Positions 2,138-18,247 are shown, counted from the stretch's first letter. The stretch: 56,790 nt of DNA from a virus (IMGVR_UViG_3300021400_000048:1-56790); one strand, 5' to 3'. Notes: a model not told the origin generated them from the letters alone. Numbers and translations: made by a program.

Positions 2138-2223
2138 TGGTGGGCAGAGAAGGAGTTGCACCTCCGTTGTTTCTATGTGAGGGATTTACAGTCCCTTGCC
2201 CTCGCTGCTAGGCATACCTGCCC
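2138..2223 (-). tRNA. tRNA-Tyr(GTA)
   Basis: AGGGA-CTGTAAA-TCCCT, long variable arm, CCA. Confidence 0.9.
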
Positions 2224-2227
2224 AATT

Positions 2228-2302
2228 TGGAGCAAGTGGACGGGATCGAACCGACACTCCCAGCTTGGAGGGCTGGAGCACTAACCATTATACTACACCT
2301 GC
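2228..2302 (-). tRNA. tRNA-Gly(TCC)
   Basis: CCAGC-CCTCCAA-GCTGG, U73, CCA. Confidence 0.9.
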
Positions 2303-2310
2303 AAATATTT

Positions 2311-2375
2311 GGCCTAACTAATATGAATTTCTTAGCAGGAAAATGCCTTACGGCTAGAAATAAGTATAGGCTCTA
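2311..2375 (-). repeat. Bracket element C (short insert containing TCCTGCTA)
   Basis: TAGA-GCCTA-T-AC-TTATTTCT ... TCATATTA-GT-TAGGC-C. Confidence 0.8.
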
Positions 2376-2392
2376 TTTTATTTTTAATTTAA

Positions 2393-2505
2393 GGCTGAAC
2401 TTTTATTTTGGCGAGAATAGGATTTGAACCTATAACCTCTGGACTAGAATTCCAGTGCTCTACCAATTGAGCTATCCTGCTAAAAAGAAATAAGTATCAG
2501 CTCTA
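2393..2505 (-). tRNA. Bracket element B enclosing an atypical tRNA(TCT) (2409-2481) with shortened acceptor 3' strand
   Basis: TAGA-GCTGA-T-AC-TTATTTCT-TTTT|AGCAGGA...CTGGA-ATTCTAG-TCCAG...CCTAT-TCTCG-CCA|AAATAAAA-GT-TCAGC-C. Confidence 0.7.
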
Positions 2506-2523
2506 TTTTTATTTTTAATTTTT

Positions 2524-2642
2524 GGCTCAGCTAACATTACGGTGCTCTACCTCTGAGCTATATCCTAGGCACTGCTAGAATAGCAAGATTTGAACTTGCG
2601 ACCACCGGCTTACAAGGCAAATAGAAATAAGCATGAGCTCTA
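2524..2642 (-). tRNA. Circularly permuted tRNA-Thr(TGT) in bracket A (3' half 2576-2618, 5' half 2540-2567)
   Basis: Rejoined at 29/30 it gives a full cloverleaf: acceptor TAGGATA/TATTCTA, anticodon stem CCG|GC/GCCGG, loop CTTGTAA, T-arm GCAAG-TTCAAAT-CTTGC; 8-nt linker. Confidence 0.9.
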
Positions 2643-2644
2643 TC

Positions 2645-2736
2645 TGGCGGAGAGTGTAGGATTCGAACCTACGGTCCCCCTTACGGAGGACGACAGTTTA
2701 GCAAACTGCTGGGTTAAGCCACTCCCCCAACTCTCC
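2645..2736 (-). tRNA. tRNA-Ser(GCT)
   Basis: Loop TT-GCT-AA, long variable arm, G73, CCA. Confidence 0.9.
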
Positions 2737-2743
2737 GTATAAA

Positions 2744-2820
2744 TGGTGACCCCAGCGGGATTCGAACCCACAATCTCAGCTGTGAAGGAGCCGTGACTTA
2801 ACCAATTCGTCTATGAGGCC
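2744..2820 (-). tRNA. tRNA-Glu(TTC)
   Basis: CGGCT-CCTTCAC-AGCTG, CCA. Confidence 0.85.
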
Positions 2821-2825
2821 ATATA

Positions 2826-2903
2826 TGGCGGCCCAACTAGGACTTGAACCTAGGACCTACGGTTTAACAGACCGTTGCTACTAACCAACTGAGCTACTGG
2901 GCC
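2826..2903 (-). tRNA. tRNA-Asn(GTT)
   Basis: ACGGT-CTGTTAA-ACCGT, G73, CCA. Confidence 0.9.
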
Positions 2904-2912
2904 ATTAGCTCG

Positions 2913-4088
2913 CTATTCACAAGCTTTGAAGTTGTAAATAGGAGTTATTATATTAATTATTTCAATAGTATCACTGACTTTATCAATGATTTCTTGAGCA
3001 TTTTTATATACCATTGGTGCTTCATCAATAGTATCTTGGTCTGCAGTTGTAGTATAAATACCTTGCATTGCATTTTGGAAATCTTCTAATTGTAAATTTG
3101 CTCTTGCTTCACTTCTTGACATAATGCGTCCAGCACCATGTGGAGCAGAATAATTCCAATCTTCATTTCCTTTTCCAATACCAATTATACTACCATCTCG
3201 CATATTTAAAGGTATAATTAATTTTTGTCCTTTATAGGCAGAAATTGCACCTTTACGAACTATATTATCATCACCAATATAATTATGAATAGATTCAAAA
3301 ATATTAATTGGTCTTATATTTAAGAATTTTAATATTTTTTCTAACATTAATCTTCTATTTTCTTTTGCAAAAACTTGACAAATTCTCATATCATGAAGAT
3401 ATTGTTCTCTTAATTCACCTTCTAAAAAACATAAATCTTTTGGAATTGAATAATCTTCAAATTGCTTATGTAAATCTTTTAATGCATCAGAAATTTCTGC
3501 TTGGCGACCTTGTGCTTTTAATTTAGCAATTAGCTCAACACTTTTTTCCTTAAAGAAATCATTATGACACATTTTAACTGCTTTATCTTGATAAATATCA
3601 GCAACTTGCTTTCCTAAATTTCTTGAGCCTGAATGAATTACTAAATATTTATTATCATCAGCATCTTTATCAATTTCAATAAAATGGTTTCCGCCGCCTA
3701 ATGAACAAATACTTAATGCTAAATAATCTTTATTTCTTAATTCATTATAGCAATATAATTTAGTAATGTCAAAATCTTCAACAATATAATCATTTGCATT
3801 CATTCCGCTTGGAATTTTTGTTTTGATAAAATTATCAACAGCTTCTAAATTAATATCAACTTTACCAAGTTCTGCAACAATTACACCGCAACCAATATCT
3901 ACACCAACAATATTTGGAATTACTTTATCACCTAAGTTCGCAGTAAAACCAATTACACATCCTGCACCAGCATGAACATCTGGCATAATTCTTACCTTAG
4001 CATTTCTAAATGGCGCAAGATTTAATAAAGTATAAATTTGATTTGTTGCTTTTGGATCAATATTTTCTGTGAATATTTTTAAATTCAT
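2913..4088 (-). CDS. rtcB: RtcB family RNA ligase
   Basis: MPDVHAG, GVDIGCG, SLGGGNHFIE, IHSGSR, HNYI, SAPHGAGR, DEAPMVYK motifs; ATG at 4088 after AGGTG (ORF track starts at 4097). Confidence 0.95.
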   Translation of the reverse strand: MNLKIFTENIDPKATNQIYTLLNLAPFRNAKVRIMPDVHAGAGCVIGFTANLGDKVIPNIVGVDIGCGVIVAELGKVDINLEAVDNFIKTKIPSGMNANDYIVEDFDITKLYCYNELRNKDYLALSICSLGGGNHFIEIDKDADDNKYLVIHSGSRNLGKQVADIYQDKAVKMCHNDFFKEKSVELIAKLKAQGRQAEISDALKDLHKQFEDYSIPKDLCFLEGELREQYLHDMRICQVFAKENRRLMLEKILKFLNIRPINIFESIHNYIGDDNIVRKGAISAYKGQKLIIPLNMRDGSIIGIGKGNEDWNYSAPHGAGRIMSRSEARANLQLEDFQNAMQGIYTTTADQDTIDEAPMVYKNAQEIIDKVSDTIEIINIITPIYNFKACE

Positions 4089-4106
4089 TCTAATCACCTA
4101 ATTTCT

Positions 4107-4287
4107 GACATGACTAATATAACGCCGGCTTTACCAATTTGCCTATTTCCCCAAATTGGCCGAACTTCTTATAAAATAACCCAAATATTTGTAAAAAGAA
4201 ATAAGTATCGGCTCTATCTGGTGGGGAAAGCTGGAATCGAACCAGCATACAGCGGCTCCCAAAGCAAAGAAATAAGTACAGGTTCTA
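4107..4287 (-). tRNA. Circularly permuted tRNA-Pro(TGG) (3' half 4219-4265, 5' half 4123-4152)
   Basis: Rejoined at 29/30: acceptor GGGGAAA/TTTCCCC, stem GCG|GC/GCCGC, loop TTTGGGA, T-arm GCTGG-TTCGATT-CCAGC, A73-CCA; outer bracket ACCTG-T-AC / GT-CATGT. Confidence 0.9.
4158..4216 (-). repeat. Bracket element D nested in the linker of the permuted tRNA-Pro
   Basis: TAGA-GCCGA-T-AC-TTATTTCT ... TATAAGAA-GT-TCGGC-C. Confidence 0.8.
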
Positions 4288-4291
4288 TTTT

Positions 4292-4365
4292 TGGCAGGCA
4301 CTGAAAGAATCGAACTCTCATCAGGTGTTTTGGAGACACTTATTCTACCGTTAAACTAAGCACCT
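4292..4365 (-). tRNA. tRNA-Trp(CCA)
   Basis: Loop CT-CCA-AA, G73, CCA. Confidence 0.85.
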
Positions 4366-4379
4366 ACTATACTATTATA

Positions 4380-4454
4380 TGGTCCCAGTTGCTTGACTCG
4401 AACAAGCATTGGTCGGGTATGAACCGACTTTCCTAGCCGTTAAAAGAAACTGGG
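4380..4454 (-). tRNA. tRNA(CAT), Met or Ile2
   Basis: GTCGG-TTCATAC-CCGAC, CCA. Confidence 0.8.
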
Positions 4455-4459
4455 ATAAA

Positions 4460-4534
4460 TGGTGCCGATTGACAGATTCGAACTGCCATTAGAAGTTTAC
4501 AAGACTACTGTACTAGCCATTATACGAAACCGGC
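4460..4534 (-). tRNA. tRNA-Thr(TGT), linear
   Basis: GCCGGTT/AATCGGC acceptor, loop CTTGTAA, one T-T mismatch in the anticodon stem. Confidence 0.85.
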
Positions 4535-4740
4535 AATGTTATTTACTACATTATATTATACAATAAAATATAGTAAATTTAGTAGAATTATTTTATTTCA
4601 TTTAAGTTTAAATTATAATCAATAAATAATTCTGCAACAGTGTTTAAAAAGCTTTTAACTCTTCTTAACATTTTATTATTTCCCTTCTAGGTTTTAACGT
4701 CTTTTATCTTGACAATTTTACTAGAAGAAGATGAAGCCAT

Positions 4741-4816
4741 TGGGGTGTCCTGCCAGAATTGAACTGACAACTTCAGGGCCACAACCTAACGTGATAACCA
4801 TTTCACCAAGAACGCC
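4741..4816 (-). tRNA. tRNA-His(GTG)
   Basis: Loop TT-GTG-GC, G-1/C73, CCA. Confidence 0.85.
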
Positions 4817-4824
4817 ATATATAT

Positions 4825-4898
4825 TGGAGCATCGAGTCAGGATCGAACTGACGGTCAGGGTGTTGCAGACCCTTGCCTTACCGCTTGGCTACCGATGC
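4825..4898 (-). tRNA. tRNA-Cys(GCA)
   Basis: AGGGT-CTGCAAC-ACCCT, U73, CCA. Confidence 0.9.
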
Positions 4899-4904
4899 AA
4901 GTAT

Positions 4905-4981
4905 TGGTACCTTACATAGGAGTAGAACCTATACTGTAATGGGTTTGAGCCATCTTTCTCTACCAGTTGGAATAGTAAGGC
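4905..4981 (-). tRNA. tRNA(CAA), nominal Leu, short variable arm
   Basis: GATGG-CTCAAAC-CCATT, CCA. Confidence 0.7.
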
Positions 4982-5010
4982 ATGTAAAGCTAAGTTTAAA
5001 AACTTAACTT

Positions 5011-5430
5011 TTAATTATTTTCTCTGGCAATCTTACTTACTAAAGCCATATCAACTTGTCCATTATAGTTTGTTTTGAAAAACTTCATAATAGATGGGAT
5101 TGACTTATCAGGCAAATCATTGATTAATTCTTTTATTTTATCTTCTGATAATTGTTTTGGTAAGTATTCTTTAATTAATTCTTTTTGTTTTGTTAATTCG
5201 TCAGCTTTTTCAATTCTATTTACTTTTACATTAGCCTCAATTTCTTCATCTAATTGTTTATTTAATTTTCTTATAATATTATAAACTTCAGAATCCCCTA
5301 ATGTATCTGTTCTTAATTCAATAGTTTTATTTTTTAAACTATTATAAAGTAAACCAAGAATATTCTTCGCTAATTCATTTTTTTCTTTTCTGGCATTGAT
5401 AAAATCTGTATAAATCTTATTATATAGCAT
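5011..5430 (-). CDS. GatB/YqeY domain protein
   Basis: 139 aa helical; ARKEKN, K..REIKEYLPKQLSED, GQVDMALVSK pattern of YqeY. Confidence 0.85.
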   Translation of the reverse strand: MLYNKIYTDFINARKEKNELAKNILGLLYNSLKNKTIELRTDTLGDSEVYNIIRKLNKQLDEEIEANVKVNRIEKADELTKQKELIKEYLPKQLSEDKIKELINDLPDKSIPSIMKFFKTNYNGQVDMALVSKIARENN

Positions 5431-5453
5431 ATTTATATTCCTTTCTTGTCTTT

Positions 5454-5538
5454 TGGAAGAGTGATTAGGATTTGCACCTAAACTTGCTGTGTCTGTAATT
5501 ACCCCTGGGAGCTATGCTACTAGTTACATTATCACTCT
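5454..5538 (-). ncRNA. tRNA-like RNA with expanded non-canonical anticodon arm
   Basis: AGAGTGA/TCACTCT acceptor, TTAGG-TGCAAAT-CCTAA, U73-CCA; GCT[22 nt]AGC in place of the anticodon arm. Confidence 0.55.
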
Positions 5539-5543
5539 ATTAA

Positions 5544-5620
5544 TGGTGCGCCCAGCAGGACTCGAACCTGCAAAATTCAGTTTCTAAGACTGGCACCTAT
5601 ACCAGTTCGGTTATGAGCGC
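5544..5620 (-). tRNA. tRNA(TAG), nominal Leu, short variable arm
   Basis: CCAGT-CTTAGAA-ACTGA, CCA. Confidence 0.8.
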
Positions 5621-5623
5621 ATA

Positions 5624-5700
5624 TGGTCAGGGTAGTAGGATTCGAACCTACAACTTCTAAGTTCCAGGCCTAGTGGTCTACCAAATTGACGTATACCCTG
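5624..5700 (-). tRNA. tRNA-Pro(TGG), linear
   Basis: C1-G72, A73, loop CC-TGG-AA. Confidence 0.85.
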
Positions 5701-5706
5701 ATTTAT

Positions 5707-5796
5707 TGGCGAAGAGTGTAGGATTTGAACCCACGGTGGCTTTCACCACGTCTGATTTCAAGTCAGGTGCAATAAACCAAACTCTGCCAACTCTCC
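5707..5796 (-). tRNA. tRNA-Ser(TGA)
   Basis: Loop CT-TGA-AA, long variable arm, G73. Confidence 0.9.
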
Positions 5797-5807
5797 AAAA
5801 TTATTCA

Positions 5808-5981
5808 CTAATTTAATTCTTTTTTAGTTTCTGATTTTTCTTTTTGTCTTAAGTGCTTTCTATGAAGTCTACCTTTAACAAAATCCTTATAGACTTTGCA
5901 ATGTCTTCTAACTCGTTTATTTTTTCTTTGACAAGTTAAATAATCACACCAACAACAACAATTAATTATTTCTTTCTTCAT
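5808..5981 (-). CDS. Small basic Cys-rich hypothetical protein (57 aa)
   Basis: SD AAGGA; MKKEIINCCCWCDYLTCQRKNKRVRRH... Confidence 0.45.
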   Translation of the reverse strand: MKKEIINCCCWCDYLTCQRKNKRVRRHCKVYKDFVKGRLHRKHLRQKEKSETKKELN

Positions 5982-5998
5982 AAATAATTCCTTTTTAA

Positions 5999-6074
5999 TG
6001 GCGGTCCCCCTTGGAATTGCACCAAGTTCTGCGGATTTTCAGTCCGCTGCATAGACTACCTCTGCCAGAGAACC
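5999..6074 (-). tRNA. tRNA-Phe(GAA)
   Basis: GCGGA-CTGAAAA-TCCGC, CCA. Confidence 0.85.
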
Positions 6075-6082
6075 ATATATTT

Positions 6083-6152
6083 GGCCTAGCTTCACACCCA
6101 TTGATTAAAAGTCAATTGCTCTATTGAGCTCTAGAAATAAGCATAGGCTCTA
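6083..6152 (-). repeat. Bracket element E enclosing D- and anticodon arms of a tRNA-Lys(TTT)
   Basis: TAGA-GCCTA-T-GC-TTATTTCT-AGAGCTCAATAGAGC-A-ATTGA-CTTTTAA-TCAAT...GC-TAGGC-C. Confidence 0.8.
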
Positions 6153-6162
6153 ATTATTTATT

Positions 6163-6249
6163 TGGTGGCCCGGGTGGGATTTGAACCCACACGCCTTTAC
6201 GGGCAAGGGATTTTAAGTCCCTCGTGTCTACCTATTCCGCCACCGGGCC
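6163..6249 (-). tRNA. tRNA-Leu(TAA)
   Basis: Anticodon TAA, long variable arm, A73-CCA. Confidence 0.9.
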
Positions 6250-6253
6250 ATAT

Positions 6254-6334
6254 TGGTGCAGGAAGGCAATGACTCCAGACTTGCATTTCTCATTTCTGAG
6301 CGTTCTTTTTATCGAGCAGTTGAACTACTTCCCT
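6254..6334 (-). ncRNA. Degenerate tRNA-like RNA with GAAA-tetraloop arm
   Basis: AGGGAAG/CTTCCTG acceptor-like stem, ends ACCA, CTCA-GAAA-TGAG in place of the anticodon arm. Confidence 0.4.
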
Positions 6335-7622: not shown

Positions 7623-8621
7623 TTAAAATTTTAAACCAATTTTAAAATAAATTTCAGAAATTTTTTTATCTGCTCTTATTTTAGCTTTTTCAGCGCCGGT
7701 CATTAAAATTTTATTTAATTTATTAATATCAGTTTTTAACTCATTTACTTTATTTTGAATTTTTAAACATTCTGCACAAACAATATCTGCAACAGCTTTT
7801 TTAAAAATTCCATAATCTTTTTCATCTTTAAATATTTCTACAGCATCTTCTATAGAAATATCTTTTAAGCCAGCATAGATAGAAAGTAAATTACTAATTC
7901 CAGGCTTATGCTCAGGATCATAATAAATTTTACTTTCTGCATCTGTAACTGCTTTCATAATTTTTTTACGAGTTTTTTCAATATCTTCTAAAAGATAAAT
8001 AGTTCCTTTATCAGATTCAGATTTACTCATCTTTTTTGTTGGGTCAGATAAAGACATAATTTTAGCACCAGTTTTTGAAATAATAGGTTTTGGTAATTTA
8101 AAAGTTTCACCATAAGTTCTATTAAATCTATCAGCAAGTATTTTAGTTAATTCAATATGTTGGACTTGATCAATACCAACAGGAACATAATCGGCATCAT
8201 ATAATAATATATCTGCAGCCATTAAACTTGGATACATAAAAATTCCTGTTGGAATGCCTTCATGAGCAGTTATACTAGCTGCCTTTAGCTGATATTGATG
8301 CATTTCATAAAAATGTCTCATAACAGAATTACAAGTTAATATCCACTCTAATTGATTATGAGCAGGAACATCTGACTGTTTAAATAATACTGTTTTTTTA
8401 TCATCTAACCCAGCAGCTAAATATGTTGCAATTAAATTTAGTGAATTTTCTTTTAATTCTTCTGGCTTAATTGGAAGTGTTAATGCATGCAAATCAGCAA
8501 TAAATATATATAAATTATATTCATCTTGATATTTTACAAGCGGTTTAATTGCTCCAAGCAATGTGCCAAGAGTTGGTATACCTGTTGGTTTTATACCAGA
8601 TAACATTATAGCTTTATTCAT
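7623..8621 (-). CDS. trpS: Tryptophanyl-tRNA synthetase
   Basis: SGIKPTG, HIGH-like TLG, YPSLMAADILLY, VPVGIDQVQHIELT, KMSKS. Confidence 0.95.
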   Translation of the reverse strand: MNKAIMLSGIKPTGIPTLGTLLGAIKPLVKYQDEYNLYIFIADLHALTLPIKPEELKENSLNLIATYLAAGLDDKKTVLFKQSDVPAHNQLEWILTCNSVMRHFYEMHQYQLKAASITAHEGIPTGIFMYPSLMAADILLYDADYVPVGIDQVQHIELTKILADRFNRTYGETFKLPKPIISKTGAKIMSLSDPTKKMSKSESDKGTIYLLEDIEKTRKKIMKAVTDAESKIYYDPEHKPGISNLLSIYAGLKDISIEDAVEIFKDEKDYGIFKKAVADIVCAECLKIQNKVNELKTDINKLNKILMTGAEKAKIRADKKISEIYFKIGLKF

Positions 8622-8622
8622 A

Positions 8623-10995
8623 TTAAGCCTCTAAAATATTTCTAGTTAATACTTCTGGTAATAATTCTTCAATATGACTAACTGGAATAATTTTTAAATT
8701 ATTTTTAATTTCATCTGGCAAATCTTCAATATCTCGCTCATTTTCTTTTGGAATATAAATTGTATCAAGACCTGCTGTATAAGCCGCAATTGATTTTTCT
8801 TTTAGACCACCAATTGGAAGAATACGGCCTCTTAATGAAATTTCACCAGTCATACCAACATTATGTTTTACTGGAGTATCTGACATAGCACTTAGCATTG
8901 CAGTAACAAATGTTACACCAGCAGATGGTCCATCTTTAGGTACTGCTCCTTCTGGACAGTGAATATGTAAGTCAGAGTGGAATTGTGAATTAGTCATATT
9001 AAATAACATTTTATGAGATTTAATCCAGTTATAAGCAGCTTCTGCAGATTCTTTCATTACTTCACCAAGATTACCTGTAATTGTATAACTACCATTACTA
9101 TCATCTTTACCTTGAGTTGCTACTGCTTCAATTTGTAAAACATCTCCACCAAAATCAGTATAAGCTAAACCATTAACAACGCCAACTAAATCTTCTTTTT
9201 CAACGATATCATAGTCATACTTTCTCTTGCCAAGCATTTCTTTTAATAAAGCAGTATCAACAACAACTTTATCTAAATGCTCAGACATAATCTTTTTAAT
9301 AGATCTTCTAACTACTGTATCAATACAACGTTCTAATTGACGAGCACCAGCTTCACGTGTATAATATCTAATTAATTCATCTAAAGCTTCATCAGTTATT
9401 TTAAATTTTTCAGGTTCAAGACCATTTTTTTCTAACGATTTAGCAATAGTATGTTCCCTTGCAATATTAAATTTTTCAAGTCTTGTATAGCTTGACAATT
9501 CAATAATTTCCATTCTATCTCTAAGAGGTGCTGGAATTGAATATAAATCATTAGCTGTACAAATAAACATAACTTCTGATAAATCAAATTCTAATTCAAG
9601 ATAATGATCCATAAAATGTTCATTTTGTGCAGGGTCTAAAACTTCAAGTAATGATGCGCTTGGGTCACCTTTATAATCAGCACCAAGTTTATCTATTTCA
9701 TCTAATAGGAATACAGGATTTTTAGAGCCAGCTTCTTTAATACCATTAATAATTCTACCTGGCAAAGCTCCTAAATAAGTTCTTCTATGACCTCTAATTT
9801 CAGCTTCATCTTTTACACCGCCAAGTGATTGCTTAACAAACTTTCTTCCAAGTGCTTCAGCTATTGATTTTGCAATAGTTGTTTTACCAGTTCCTGGAGG
9901 GCCAGCTAAGCAAAGAATAGTTTGTGGTGTTTTTTGAGAATATAATTTAACTGCAAGATAATCTAAAATTCTTTCTTTAGGCTTATCAAGACCAGAATGT
10001 GTTTCATCAAGTTTTGCTTTAACAGCATCAATATCTGTATTATCTTCAGTTCTTACATTCCAAGGAAGTGCAAGTAAAGTATCAAGATAGTTTCTAATCA
10101 TTGAAGATTCGGGTGAAGCGCCATTTGTTGATTGATAGCGCTTTAACTCTCTTAATGCTTGGTTTTCTGCAGCCTCATGCATACCAATAGATTTAATTTT
10201 TTCCCTTAGACTATCTATATCAGCAGTAGCTTTATCAACATCACCAAGGTCCTCTTGAATAGCTCTTAATTTTTTTCGTAAATAGTATTCTTTTTGCTCT
10301 TTCATTATATCAGCTTGTACAGAGCTTTCAATTTGTCTATCAATTTCTGCAAGCTTTTCAACCTGTAGCATTAAAGAAGCAACTTTATGAAGTCTACTAT
10401 TAAACTCAGTATCAGCTAAAAAATCATAGATATTAACTTTAACTACTGACAAATTTGCAACAATTGTATCACAAAGTAAGGACTTCTTATCTTCTGCATC
10501 TAAGTATTGCTCAACAGCAAAAATATCTGAAAAAACTTGGTCTTTATATTTTCTTGCTTTTTTACAAATTACATTAAAAAGAGCAGCTGATTCATCTGTA
10601 AGATCTTCAGTATCAGTATAAACTTGAAGGTCTGCACATTGATAGTTAAGAACTTCAGCCCCAATTGAATTATTTAATTCAAAAGTATCATCCATCATAC
10701 TTACTAAATAAGCTCTTTTTTCTAAAACAATGTTAAATGATACACTTTCATCTGAAATAAAAGTAATATTTTGAAAAGTGCCAAATAGCCCAGCTGGCTT
10801 TACTGTTAGAGTTTCTTTATCTCTAAAAAATACACTTACTTGATTCTTAAAATAATTTTGTGATACTTTACATGTATCTATAAAAAATTTACTCGCAGTT
10901 ACCAAATTAATAGTTGTTCCAGGCAAAACTGGTTCTTCATCAAATACTATTATTGGTGCTTGTTTAATTTCTTGATAAGTCATATAATACCTCAT
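8623..10995 (-). CDS. lon: Lon ATP-dependent protease
   Basis: GPPGTGKT, LLDEIDK, PKDGPSAG catalytic Ser, ILPIGGLKEK. Confidence 0.95.
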   Translation of the reverse strand: MRYYMTYQEIKQAPIIVFDEEPVLPGTTINLVTASKFFIDTCKVSQNYFKNQVSVFFRDKETLTVKPAGLFGTFQNITFISDESVSFNIVLEKRAYLVSMMDDTFELNNSIGAEVLNYQCADLQVYTDTEDLTDESAALFNVICKKARKYKDQVFSDIFAVEQYLDAEDKKSLLCDTIVANLSVVKVNIYDFLADTEFNSRLHKVASLMLQVEKLAEIDRQIESSVQADIMKEQKEYYLRKKLRAIQEDLGDVDKATADIDSLREKIKSIGMHEAAENQALRELKRYQSTNGASPESSMIRNYLDTLLALPWNVRTEDNTDIDAVKAKLDETHSGLDKPKERILDYLAVKLYSQKTPQTILCLAGPPGTGKTTIAKSIAEALGRKFVKQSLGGVKDEAEIRGHRRTYLGALPGRIINGIKEAGSKNPVFLLDEIDKLGADYKGDPSASLLEVLDPAQNEHFMDHYLELEFDLSEVMFICTANDLYSIPAPLRDRMEIIELSSYTRLEKFNIAREHTIAKSLEKNGLEPEKFKITDEALDELIRYYTREAGARQLERCIDTVVRRSIKKIMSEHLDKVVVDTALLKEMLGKRKYDYDIVEKEDLVGVVNGLAYTDFGGDVLQIEAVATQGKDDSNGSYTITGNLGEVMKESAEAAYNWIKSHKMLFNMTNSQFHSDLHIHCPEGAVPKDGPSAGVTFVTAMLSAMSDTPVKHNVGMTGEISLRGRILPIGGLKEKSIAAYTAGLDTIYIPKENERDIEDLPDEIKNNLKIIPVSHIEELLPEVLTRNILEA

Positions 10996-11042
10996 TTACT
11001 ATATTATTATACAATATTTTTATAATATTTTTAATTAAAAAT

Positions 11043-11071
11043 ACCAATTTAATATCAAATTAAACTGGTAT
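11043..11071 (-). terminator. Terminator after the suppressor tRNA
   Basis: ATACCAGTTTA/TAAATTGGTAT inverted repeat with T-tract. Confidence 0.55.
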
Positions 11072-11080
11072 TTATTTACT

Positions 11081-11155
11081 TGGCGGAGGCTGAAGGATTC
11101 GAACCCTCGATGATGGTTTTGAAGACCATAGGCATAACCACTTACCGAAGCCTCC
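11081..11155 (-). tRNA. Opal suppressor tRNA-Trp(TCA)
   Basis: GGAGGCT/AGCCTCC acceptor, ATGGT-CT-TCA-AA-ACCAT, short variable arm (not Sec), G73-CCA; has its own promoter and terminator. Confidence 0.92.
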
Positions 11156-17994: not shown

Positions 17995-18085
17995 AAATAA
18001 AAACCAATTGCTTTTTGCAACTGGCTGTCTCTTCTTAGACCCTATAGCTTTGCGTCACAAGATTTCTCTTGCTTTGCCTTAAATT
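17995..18085 (-). promoter_or_regulatory. GEMM-I (c-di-GMP-I) riboswitch, downstream copy, G20 type, with terminator
   Basis: GGCAAA-GCAAGA-GAAA-TCTTGT-GACGCAAAGCTATAGGGTCTAA..GACAGCCAGTTGC; terminator CCAGTTGC/GCAATTGG-TTTTTT. Confidence 0.9.
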
Positions 18086-18116
18086 ATACGTACTAAGCTT
18101 TTTATTAAAATAAAAT

Positions 18117-18205
18117 AAAAAGCCACTCGCATAATTGCAACTGGCTACCATTTCAGGTCCTATAGCTTTGCGTCACACAGTTTCCTGTGTTTTGCTGAAT
18201 AACTT
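18117..18205 (-). promoter_or_regulatory. GEMM-I riboswitch, upstream copy, A20 type, with terminator
   Basis: AGCAAA-ACACAG-GAAA-CTGTGT-GACGCAAAGCTATAGGACCTGAAATGGTAGCCAGTTGC; terminator GCCA-GTTGC/GCGA-GTGGC-TTTTT. Confidence 0.9.
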
Positions 18206-18247
18206 TTTTACATTTAATTTAGCTAATATTTTAACTAATATTTTTAG

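What the first reader, a model, noticed from the sequence alone, without database searches (positions are those of the whole stretch)
2311..6152. Six-copy bipartite RNA motif with compensatory base changes
Seen: leader TAGA-[N5]-T-[N2]-TTATTTCT and trailer [8 nt]-[N2']-[N5']-C. The N5 pairs are GCTCA/TGAGC, GCTGA/TCAGC, GCCTA/TAGGC (twice), GCCGA/TCGGC and ACCTG/CATGT; the N2 pairs are AC/GT or GC/GC. The variable positions covary while the bulged T, TAGA and TTATTTCT are fixed. In Thr, Pro and element B the tRNA piece ends exactly 8 nt before N2'. Inference: a structured processing signal, either a protein-recognition helix or a small ribozyme. I could not match it to hammerhead, hairpin, twister, BHB or group I/II ends.
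Basis: partly seen in the sequence, partly recalled or inferred. Interest (0 to 1): 0.85.

Follow-up and report, generated by a model that had tools for sequence, protein, structure and literature searches.

The report
Conserved handle on phage tRNA-mimic RNAs
A group of large uncultivated gut and rumen phages encodes dozens of small RNAs that share one strictly conserved end-to-end "handle" helix clamped around variable tRNA-like pieces, including whole tRNAs written back-to-front. This is a new RNA family that resembles bacterial Y RNAs but has no known protein partner.

Summary
All six brackets are present on the minus strand. The same leader and trailer recur in about 80 distinct copies on about 30 uncultivated phage contigs, with 29 different helix sequences. 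In a 37-sequence alignment all 259 helix cells are paired, 6 of 7 pairs show compensatory changes, and 0 of 500 shuffles match this.

The flanks are essentially invariant: (U)AGA, a bulged U, RC, UUAUUUCU, then YA before the 3' strand and C after it. Random leader matches in bacterial genomes and metagenomes almost never have a trailer.

The brackets enclose tRNA-derived modules. These are anticodon-arm mimics, D-arm plus anticodon arm, T-arm plus acceptor, whole circularly permuted tRNA bodies (Thr and Pro here), aberrant linear tRNAs, and a few unrelated hairpins.

No known ribozyme, bulge-helix-bulge motif or HDV-like fold fits. No Ro60 gene or splicing endonuclease is present, and rtcB is missing from 4 of 5 related genomes.

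The best reading is a Y-RNA-like modular small RNA: a constant docking or stabilising handle joined to a tRNA mimic. A back-splicing or circularisation cassette remains a live rival, and no RNA data could decide between them. This scan has noted analogous "handle plus tRNA mimic" RNAs with other handles next to Ro60 genes in other phages.

The parts
2311..2375 (-). Bracket A. Leader 2375-2356, trailer stem 2318-2312 plus C at 2311. The cargo is a GCC-GUAA-GGC mini-hairpin plus an anticodon-arm-like hairpin with loop CUGCUAA (GCU).
   Evidence: P1 forms in the MFE and centroid folds
2393..2505 (-). Bracket B. It encloses a linear tRNA-Arg(UCU)-like gene (2408-2482) whose acceptor stem has two A.C mismatches.
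   Evidence: (61 bits tRNA)
2524..2642 (-). Bracket C. It encloses a circularly permuted tRNA-Thr(UGU) body: the 3' half, an 8-nt cap, then the 5' half, with the break at 29/30.
   Evidence: ARAGORN finds tRNA-Thr only after circular rejoining; sub-threshold YrlA hit at 2538-2607
4107..4287 (-). Bracket E. It encloses a permuted tRNA-Pro(UGG) body with an encoded ACCA. P1 has one mismatch. The rtcB ribosome-binding site and start codon follow about 20 nt after the trailer.
4158..4216 (-). Bracket D, nested in the acceptor linker of E. The cargo is a small hairpin with loop UUUGGGU (Pro-anticodon-like).
   Evidence: The same nesting occurs in the ortholog L024.
6083..6152 (-). Bracket F. The cargo is a short D-arm plus a tRNA-Lys(UUU) anticodon arm, with no T-arm or acceptor.
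   Evidence: (partial tRNA hit at 6100-6129)
2376..2392 (-). A/U-rich spacer between trailer B and leader A. A near-identical spacer at 2506-2523 lies between C and B.
2913..4097 (-). rtcB (3'-phosphate/5'-OH RNA ligase), immediately downstream of bracket E. It is a context gene and is not required by the family.
   Evidence: Pfam RtcB, 3e-56; absent from 4 of 5 related near-complete genomes

Best explanation
The motif is the constant 'handle' of a family of small structured RNAs. They are encoded in the tRNA/ncRNA islands of a clade of uncultivated, roughly 220-kb, TGA-recoded gut and rumen phages. The 5' and 3' ends of each RNA pair into an 8-bp helix: 5 bp, one bulged U, then R-Y, an invariant C-G and an invariant U-A. 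The helix is framed by invariant unpaired nucleotides: (U)AGA at the 5' end, UAUUUCU on the inner 5' side, YA on the inner 3' side and C(A) at the 3' end. This handle closes a variable module that is nearly always cut from tRNA cloth. Modules include an anticodon stem-loop, D-arm plus anticodon arm, T-arm plus capped acceptor, or a whole circularly permuted tRNA body.

It works like a Y RNA of the YrlA type. The handle is a docking and end-protecting module for a protein not yet identified. The module presents tRNA features, above all anticodon loops, to tRNA-binding enzymes. These RNAs most likely act as decoys or adaptors in the host-phage conflict over tRNA cleavage and repair.

Shown here: the helix, the invariants, the cargo types, the distribution and the topology. 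Inferred: protein docking, no splicing, and the decoy role.
For: The helix is proven by covariation. There are 29 distinct P1 sequences in 74 copies. All 259 cells are paired, 6 of 7 pairs show double changes, 0 of 500 shuffles match, and sliding the partner destroys the pairing. RNAalifold finds the same helix.

The unselected invariants AGA, bulged U, RC, A and C are present in 75-77 of 80 structure-defined hits. The 8-mer tolerates no mismatch above control level. A helix of free sequence with fixed single-stranded frames on all four sides, 5 bp-bulge-2 bp in shape, is the usual look of a protein-binding hairpin.

The handle is constant while the cargo and its attachment point vary (28/29, 29/30, 31/32, in place of the anticodon loop, at the acceptor ends, or at the base of the T-arm). 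About 47 of 74 brackets hold only 16-50 nt and so contain no tRNA to mature. ASL-like hairpins are enriched, at 43 of 81 against 11.7 expected.

Many cargo 'tRNAs' are not canonical. B has A.C mismatches. The Glu-type cargos vary at position 33. Orthologs of E in L024 and L023 move the junction and carry A33.

The termini always lie at the outer end of P1, and no closed intron-like hairpin form exists in 125 leaders. The tRNA-like module of C hits YrlA at E 9.5e-5 in the same permuted order. All five cargo anticodons in the window duplicate ordinary tRNAs of the same array.

rtcB is absent from 4 of 5 related genomes, and the phage has no splicing endonuclease. Brackets are always co-oriented with tRNAs (65/0). 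They often sit right after a -10 box or a CCA end and in tandem arrays, each with a different P1.
Against: No partner protein was identified. Ro60/TROVE is absent. The one gene that is consistently adjacent encodes a helical plus TerD-domain protein with no RNA-binding signature.

There is no evidence that the RNAs accumulate or what their ends are. About ten permuted cargos have fully canonical anticodon arms. The E-type cargos keep a covarying acceptor stem followed by ACCA in three diverged phages, which would suit a real tRNA that is later opened and used. Fold energies are not better than shuffles.
Confidence: 0.45

Rival explanations
1. Back-splicing or circularisation cassette. The helix brings the two ends of the cargo together, an endonuclease (phage or host) cuts on the inner side of the handle, and RtcB or the Pnkp-type ligase seals the ends. 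This un-permutes tRNA-Thr and tRNA-Pro through a circular intermediate that RNase P and 3' trimming then open, or it yields exonuclease-resistant circular decoys. It would be a natural counterpart of engineered ribozyme/RtcB circular-RNA expression systems.
For: C and E become recognisable tRNAs only after circular rejoining. About ten relatives rebuild a perfect 5-bp anticodon stem with a 7-nt loop, U33 and R37. E-type cargos conserve ACCA after a covarying acceptor stem. rtcB lies directly downstream of E in G000 and G001.
Against: No bulge-helix-bulge can form, because the leader strand next to the junction is the invariant 8-mer while the exon ends differ (direct reading). The phage has no tRNA-splicing endonuclease. 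The distance from P1 to the junctions varies (2-5 nt and 5-10 nt), so P1 cannot be the ruler. Most brackets hold no tRNA, and several cargos are non-canonical. rtcB is absent from 4 of 5 related genomes that still carry permuted cargos. Permuted Thr and Pro are redundant with normal copies.
Confidence: 0.22
2. Generic transcript punctuation or stability element of the phage tRNA/ncRNA operons. It would be a host-RNase processing site, or a 5'/3' end-protecting clamp, that separates and stabilises non-tRNA segments of polycistronic transcripts and the leaders of downstream genes (rtcB and the 675-aa gene). In this reading the cargo is largely incidental.
For: 22 of 81 leaders start within 11 nt of an upstream CCA end. 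18 of 81 start 4-9 nt after a -10-like box. There are 28 adjacent pairs with spacers of 40 nt or less. The next tRNA starts 8 nt after the trailer in A and F. Brackets precede rtcB and, in 15 of 18 loci, the 675-aa gene.
Against: A mere clamp or RNase site does not explain 16 or more invariant nucleotides around a helix of free sequence. It also does not explain why the cargo is so consistently tRNA-derived.
Confidence: 0.15
3. A new small self-cleaving ribozyme whose variable loop tolerates any cargo. It would cleave at its 5' edge (releasing the upstream tRNA 3' end, as theta ribozymes do) or at the cargo boundaries.
For: The number and placement of invariant nucleotides (about 16-20) is in the range of small ribozymes. 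There is a 7-bp P1 followed by an invariant C. The elements occur in tRNA arrays of recoded gut phages, as theta ribozymes do (PMC10879173).
Against: No Rfam ribozyme family matches at E<=10, even for the 59-70-nt copies. No second conserved helix or pseudoknot partner exists: the P2 complement is present downstream in only 11 of 74, and there is no outer pairing. The region where P3/L3 would sit is hypervariable cargo. Leaders lie 5-14 nt from the CCA end, not within 1 nt.
Confidence: 0.07
4. A DNA-level element, either a recombination site of the attC type or the ends of a small mobile element, in which the inverted repeats fold in single-stranded DNA.
For: The commonest variant, GCCTA(T)AC ... 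GTTAGGC, resembles the integron RYYYAAC / GTTRRRY boxes with an extrahelical base. One bracket is nested in another.
Against: 33 of 74 copies have GC rather than GTT, and many N5 sequences violate RRR/YYY. The strictly asymmetric invariants (AGA, UUAUUUCU) have no counterpart on the other arm. The arms lie up to 150 nt apart. All copies are co-oriented with tRNA genes (65/0). The cargo is sense tRNA-like RNA. The nesting is conserved between orthologs and so is not a recent insertion.
Confidence: 0.03

Closest known systems
YrlA-type bacterial and phage Y RNAs (Rfam RF02553; Chen et al. 2014, PMC4201824)
   Same: A small RNA whose 5' and 3' ends pair into a terminal stem with a bulge. Next comes a pyrimidine-rich internal loop, then a tRNA-like module in permuted order (T-arm, capped acceptor, D-arm). 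Several paralogs share one handle but carry different modules. The genes are linked to rtcB. The module of element C hits the YrlA model at E 9.5e-5.
   Different: The handle sequence is unrelated: there is no GNCGAAN0-1G Rsr-contact motif. No Ro60/TROVE gene occurs in six complete or near-complete genomes. Scores are far below the gathering threshold. Many modules are only an anticodon arm, or keep a complete anticodon arm as a side branch.
Circularly permuted tRNA genes of Cyanidioschyzon merolae and archaea (PMC3978253)
   Same: The 3' half is encoded upstream of the 5' half with a short linker. Complementary leader and trailer bring the ends together. A cloverleaf is recovered after rejoining.
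   Different: There is no bulge-helix-bulge motif and no splicing endonuclease. The host is bacterial. The same bracket encloses non-tRNA and partial-tRNA cargo. No evidence of ligation was found.
Theta (minimal HDV-like) ribozymes next to tRNAs in recoded gut phages (PMC10879173)
   Same: The habitat and genomic niche are the same: tRNA arrays of stop-codon-recoded gut phages. Both have a 7-bp first helix and a C after its 3' strand.
   Different: There is no nested double pseudoknot, no P2 partner and no constrained P3/L3. The elements are not within 1 nt of the tRNA 3' end, and no Rfam HDV-family hit was found.
Phage 'handle plus tRNA mimic' RNAs beside Ro60-like genes, noted earlier in this scan on other genomes (helix plus ACAGCAA handle, or GGAAACA...TGTTTCC stem)
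   Same: The same design principle applies: one constant handle, modules that mimic a tRNA or part of one, tandem modules, frequent rtcB neighbourhood, and insertion of the handle at 28/29 of a tRNA look-alike.
   Different: The handle sequence is different and there is no Ro60-like gene. Those notes are unchecked AI leads and I did not re-examine those loci.

Membership tests
YrlA / bacterial Y RNA (RF02553) | Terminal stem formed by the 5' and 3' ends, closing a tRNA-like module in permuted order | tested here: met
   P1 covariation. Permuted T-arm/acceptor/D-arm cargo in C, E and about 18 relatives.
YrlA / bacterial Y RNA (RF02553) | Conserved Rsr-contact motif GNCGAAN0-1G in the handle (PMC4201824) | tested here: not met
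   The handle consensus is (U)AGA-RCYNR-U-RC-UUAUUUCU, and no such motif appears at any position.
YrlA / bacterial Y RNA (RF02553) | Ro60/TROVE gene encoded nearby | tested here: not met
   PF05731 was absent from G000 (complete, 223 kb) and from G001-G005. The positive control with RtcB on G000 worked.
YrlA / bacterial Y RNA (RF02553) | Reaches the Rfam gathering score | tested here: not met
   33.8 bits against a gathering score of 69, covering the module only.
BHB-processed permuted tRNA genes | 3' half upstream of 5' half; a cloverleaf is restored by circular rejoining | tested here: met
   ARAGORN finds tRNA-Thr(UGU) and tRNA-Pro(UGG) only in the rejoined sequences.
BHB-processed permuted tRNA genes | Bulge-helix-bulge (two 3-nt bulges around a 4-bp helix) at the junction | tested here: not met
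   The strand preceding the 3' exon is the invariant 8-mer plus 2-5 A/U. It cannot pair with the differing exon ends ACCG, GGCG, AACG and CACC (direct reading).
BHB-processed permuted tRNA genes | tRNA-splicing endonuclease available | tested here: not met
   PF01974 was absent from the complete phage genome, and the archaeal controls were positive. The host is unknown.
BHB-processed permuted tRNA genes | Circular intermediate or ligated mature tRNA | not testable with these tools
   No RNA run holds the locus as raw reads. The laid contigs showed no true back-joint.
HDV-like / theta ribozymes | Nested double pseudoknot: P1, a P2 closed by the 3' end, a constrained P3/L3, and a catalytic C opening J4/2 | tested here: not met
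   A 7-bp P1 and a following C exist. However, the P2 complement is found downstream in only 11 of 74, there is no covarying outer pairing, and the P3/L3 position is variable cargo.
HDV-like / theta ribozymes | Cleavage site within about 1 nt of the tRNA 3' end | tested here: not met
   P1 begins 6-14 nt after the CCA end in C, D, E and F.
Other small self-cleaving ribozymes (hammerhead, twister, twister-sister, pistol, hatchet, hairpin) | Match to the family covariance model | tested here: not met
   cmscan of 2200-6300 at E<=10 with permissive filters found no ribozyme family. The same was true for L139 and L043.
Integron attC sites | RYYYAAC / GTTRRRY boxes plus second L boxes and a symmetric imperfect palindrome | tested here: not met
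   Only the commonest variant fits. 33 of 74 have GC in place of GTT, many N5 sequences break the purine/pyrimidine rule, and the invariants are asymmetric.

The most novel reading that the evidence does not exclude
The handle is the recognition element of a bacterial-virus RNA cut-and-rejoin pathway. An unidentified endonuclease (or the RNA itself) cuts inside the bracket, and RtcB or Pnkp-type ligases seal the cargo into circles. This would un-permute tRNA-Thr and tRNA-Pro and make exonuclease-proof circular anticodon-arm decoys. It would be the first tRNA back-splicing known outside archaea and eukaryotes, and a natural analogue of engineered circular-RNA expression cassettes.
Probability: 0.2. 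Interest if true: 0.92.

Novelty: new variant of a known kind. Interest (0 to 1): 0.68.

Why it matters
This defines a previously uncatalogued, strongly covarying RNA family (about 80 distinct copies, with no Rfam or literature match). Its architecture links three themes: phage tRNA arrays, tRNA mimicry of the Y-RNA type, and RNA repair (RtcB, Pnkp).

The handle is short, invariant and portable, and it tolerates cargos from 16 to 150 nt. It is therefore an attractive bait for finding its protein partner and a potential natural scaffold for displaying RNA modules.

The cargo set is dominated by anticodon arms (Pro, Lys, Thr, Asn, Arg, Glu, Ser, Cys) that duplicate the phage's own tRNAs. This gives a testable hypothesis that phages deploy tRNA-fragment decoys against anticodon-directed host nucleases. 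If the permuted tRNAs are instead rejoined, it would be the first such pathway in the bacterial world.

Tried and rejected
- **Rfam.** Searches at gathering thresholds and at E<=10 gave only tRNAs, c-di-GMP-I riboswitches and a sub-threshold YrlA hit.
- **HDV-like fold.** I searched for a P2 partner and for outer pairing. There was none beyond a weak U1:A9 signal.
- **AGA:UCU pseudoknot.** It cannot be tested because both sides are invariant. The two UUGA variants are not compensated.
- **Bulge-helix-bulge.** It cannot form (direct reading).
- **attC resemblance.** It holds only for the commonest variant.
- **Cas12a-repeat, boxA/nut and 11-nt tetraloop-receptor resemblances.** I considered these from memory and dropped them because the order or sequence does not fit.
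- **Pairing of the 8-mer with GOLLD RNA.** L043 GOLLD has no complementary site, and AGAAATAA is not enriched in the genome.
- **Public RNA data.** No RNA holder was listed for the 4.1-kb stretch. For the 471-nt stretch, three bovine-gut metatranscriptome runs and one run of unknown type hold small shares. When laid, these are low-depth contigs of relatives that run colinear with the genome across B and its spacers. The apparent go-back pieces are only D-arm and T-arm similarity. This tells us nothing about RNA ends, circles or expression.
- **Partner search by neighbourhood.** The only recurrent neighbour is a 650-677-aa protein with no Pfam or PHROG match. When folded with an alignment it is a helical domain plus a TerD domain. 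That gives no support for RNA binding. The first fold, made without an alignment, was useless.
- **The genome search with the RtcB family on G001.** It missed the copy truncated at the contig end, which a protein query then found. Family negatives on fragments should therefore be read with care.
- **Deposited phages.** None carries the bracket.
- **Closed, non-permuted form.** No such handle hairpin exists.
- **Fold energies.** They are not better than shuffles.

Full report
**Observation.** The tRNA array of this window lies on the minus strand, with 27 tRNAs. Read on that strand, six 20-nt leaders TAGA-N5-T-N2-TTATTTCT occur at the reported places. Each is followed, 31-153 nt downstream, by the exact reverse complement of its own N2 and N5 and then by a C. 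Only element E has one mismatch. D is nested inside E. C, B and A are in tandem, separated by near-identical 17-18-nt A/U spacers.

**The family beyond the window.** An exact-pattern scan of IMG/VR found the leader in 37 loci from about 25 contigs, many of 146-237 kb. Harvesting every leader with a matching trailer gave 74 good brackets. A structure-first rescan, which also covered the whole 223-kb genome, gave about 80 distinct brackets.

There are 29 different P1 helices, and six of the seven pairs change on both sides. In a MAFFT alignment of 37 independent short brackets:
- all 259 cells are paired;
- 40 cells are compensatory;
- 0 of 500 shuffles reach the observed score;
- sliding the 3' partner by one column drops pairing to 54% or less.

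RNAalifold recovers the same helix plus an invariant eighth U-A pair.

The trailers were found by complementarity, so I used external controls:
- 47 of 50 leader matches in 185,579 bacterial and archaeal genomes have no trailer. The three that do (L043, L049, L083) are phage-like MAG contigs with tandem arrays.
- About 1 of 118 random leader matches in metagenomes has a trailer.
- Brackets with an exact 8-mer number 118, against 13 in reversed sequence. With one or more mismatches in the 8-mer, real and control counts are equal.

The following were not required in that scan and are nearly invariant: AGA upstream (75/80, plus two UGA), the bulged U (75/80), N2 = RC (77/80), and C after the trailer (77/80). 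An A immediately before the trailer stem was 74/74 in the first harvest, where it was not required.

The consensus is therefore (U)AGA-[RCYNR]-U-[RC]-UUAUUUCU ... cargo ... YA-[GY]-[YNRGY]-C(A).

**Cargo.** After circular rejoining, C and E are called tRNA-Thr(UGU) and tRNA-Pro(UGG), with the break at 29/30. Across the family the cargo falls into these classes:
1. Small hairpins with anticodon-like 7-nt loops. The commonest is UUUGGGA/U (as in D), and others carry Lys, Thr, Cys or GCU loops.
2. A D-arm or mini-hairpin plus an anticodon arm (F and A).
3. A T-arm plus capped acceptor "top halves".
4. Whole permuted tRNA bodies whose acceptor stem is capped by a tetraloop or a short linker. In the E type the linker begins with ACCA.
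5. Linear but aberrant tRNAs (B has two A.C mismatches in the acceptor stem).
6. A few unrelated hairpins with no Rfam match.

ASL-like hairpins occur in 43 of 81 cargos, against 11.7 expected from shuffles, although T-arms inflate this count. The handle joins the tRNA body at different places: 28/29, 29/30, 31/32, in place of the anticodon loop, at the acceptor ends, or at the base of the T-arm.

Orthologs of E in two other phages keep a covarying acceptor stem and ACCA. However, they shift the junction and have a non-canonical loop with A33. The Glu-type cargos vary at position 33. All five anticodons displayed in the window (UGU, UGG, UCU, UUU, GCU) duplicate ordinary tRNAs of the same array.

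**Context.** The genome is a complete 223,464-bp phage with terminal repeats. Its genes need TGA = Trp. Brackets are always co-oriented with the nearest tRNA (65 to 0). Of 81 brackets, 22 start within 11 nt of a CCA end and 18 start 4-9 nt after a -10-like box. There are 28 adjacent bracket pairs with spacers of 40 nt or less. Tandem arrays keep the same order of P1 types in different phages.

Two more brackets lie at about 95,998-96,134 of the genome, behind an extended -10 box and in front of a 675-aa gene. The same gene follows a bracket in 15 of 18 loci. That protein has no Pfam or PHROG match. It has more than 575 homologs, all unnamed, and folds (pLDDT 82) into a helical domain plus a TerD domain. 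It is a conserved neighbour, not a demonstrable partner.

L043 also carries a GOLLD RNA above the gathering score beside its bracket array.

**Tests of mechanisms.**
- *Known ribozymes.* None matched, even at E<=10 on the 59-70-nt copies.
- *HDV-like or theta fold* (as defined in PMC10879173). A 7-bp P1 and a following C exist. There is no P2 partner (11/74) and no covarying outer pairing. The P3/L3 position is variable cargo, and P1 starts 6-14 nt after the CCA end.
- *Bulge-helix-bulge.* It is impossible, because the strand next to the 3' exon is the invariant 8-mer while the exon ends differ. The phage has no splicing endonuclease.
- *Y RNA.* The topology and the permuted tRNA-like module fit. 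Element C hits the YrlA model at 33.8 bits, E 9.5e-5. However, the Rsr-contact motif GNCGAAN0-1G (PMC4201824) is absent. No TROVE gene occurs in G000 or in five related genomes that are 95-100% complete (positive control).
- *rtcB.* It follows E in G000 and G001 but is absent from G002-G005, which still carry permuted cargos.
- *Closed intron-like handle hairpin.* None exists among 125 leaders.
- *Thermodynamics.* P1 forms in the MFE folds of five of the six elements, but the energies are not unusual.
- *RNA data.* The public runs were uninformative.

**Reading.** The constant part is the handle, and the variable part is almost always a piece of tRNA. Most brackets contain nothing that could be matured into a tRNA, and several "tRNAs" are defective. 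I therefore favour a modular small RNA of the Y-RNA type (0.45). In this model the handle is a docking and end-protecting module for an unknown protein, and the tRNA-mimic module probably acts as a decoy or adaptor.

The rivals are:
- a cut-and-rejoin or circularisation cassette (0.22), supported by the canonical permuted tRNAs, the conserved ACCA and the E-rtcB linkage;
- a generic processing or stability element (0.15);
- a new ribozyme (0.07);
- a DNA-level site (0.03).

**Novelty.** I found no Rfam family, deposited phage or paper that describes this motif. The design principle (handle plus tRNA mimic, often near rtcB) is known from YrlA. This scan has also noted it on other phage genomes with different handles beside Ro60-like genes (those are unchecked notes). 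I therefore class it as a new variant of a known kind, distinguished by an unrelated handle, the lack of Ro60, and cargo that ranges down to bare anticodon arms.

**Limits.** All copies come from one phage clade, so the independent compensatory events are fewer than the number of copies; 29 helix types is the safer figure. The host is unknown. Nothing is known about expression.

Noticed in passing
G000 95,998-96,134 (= L091:9999-10135, minus strand), outside the window: Two further tandem brackets (P1 GCCUA-AC and GUCUG-AC) sit behind an extended -10 box and a small hairpin, directly upstream of a 675-aa gene (L091:7945-9972, minus). The cargo of the first has a CUGCAAA (Cys-like) loop. The same bracket-then-gene synteny holds in 15 of 18 loci.
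   Followed up: yes
L091:7945-9972 (minus) and homologs such as L049:472-2487 (minus): A large conserved family (more than 575 homologs, no Pfam or PHROG match) of phage proteins with a roughly 410-aa helical domain plus a C-terminal TerD domain. Its function is unknown.
   Followed up: partly
window 2311-2505: Bracket A contains UCCUGCU-A, a perfect 7/7 complement of the 5' acceptor strand (AGCAGGA) of the tRNA-like cargo in bracket B, whose own 3' strand is mispaired. The same 7-mer also spans the stem and loop of A's anticodon-like hairpin. No relative has the same arrangement, so this may be chance or a real inter-bracket pairing.
   Followed up: partly
window 18013-18088 and 18133-18206 (minus): Two tandem c-di-GMP-I riboswitch aptamers above the Rfam gathering score (64.6 and 55.2 bits) in a phage genome.
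   Followed up: no
window 5011-5430 (minus): A YqeY/GatB-like (tRNA-binding type) 139-aa gene is embedded in the tRNA array (Pfam 1.6e-18). It is not found near brackets in other loci.
   Followed up: partly
window 7623-11155: tRNA with anticodon UCA (called SeC by ARAGORN) together with a phage TrpRS and Lon. Downstream ORFs need TGA = Trp, consistent with opal recoding.
   Followed up: partly
L043:2543-3063: GOLLD RNA (155.7 bits, gathering score 150) lies immediately upstream of a tRNA and a four-bracket array in a related phage-like contig. No GOLLD reaches the threshold in this window.
   Followed up: partly
window 2141-2223 (minus): Rfam calls an 83-nt tRNA (43.9 bits) here that ARAGORN does not report.
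   Followed up: no
L028:3518-4444 (minus) and homologs in 7 contigs: An AAA_33/KTI12-like P-loop kinase gene (polynucleotide-kinase-like) recurs within about 5 kb of brackets.
   Followed up: no
L006, L003, L012, L015, L083 (for example L006:2718-2733): Stand-alone permuted-tRNA brackets share a conserved TATAATATAAYA box ending right at the (U/C)AGA. This suggests that transcription starts at the first nucleotides of the handle.
   Followed up: partly
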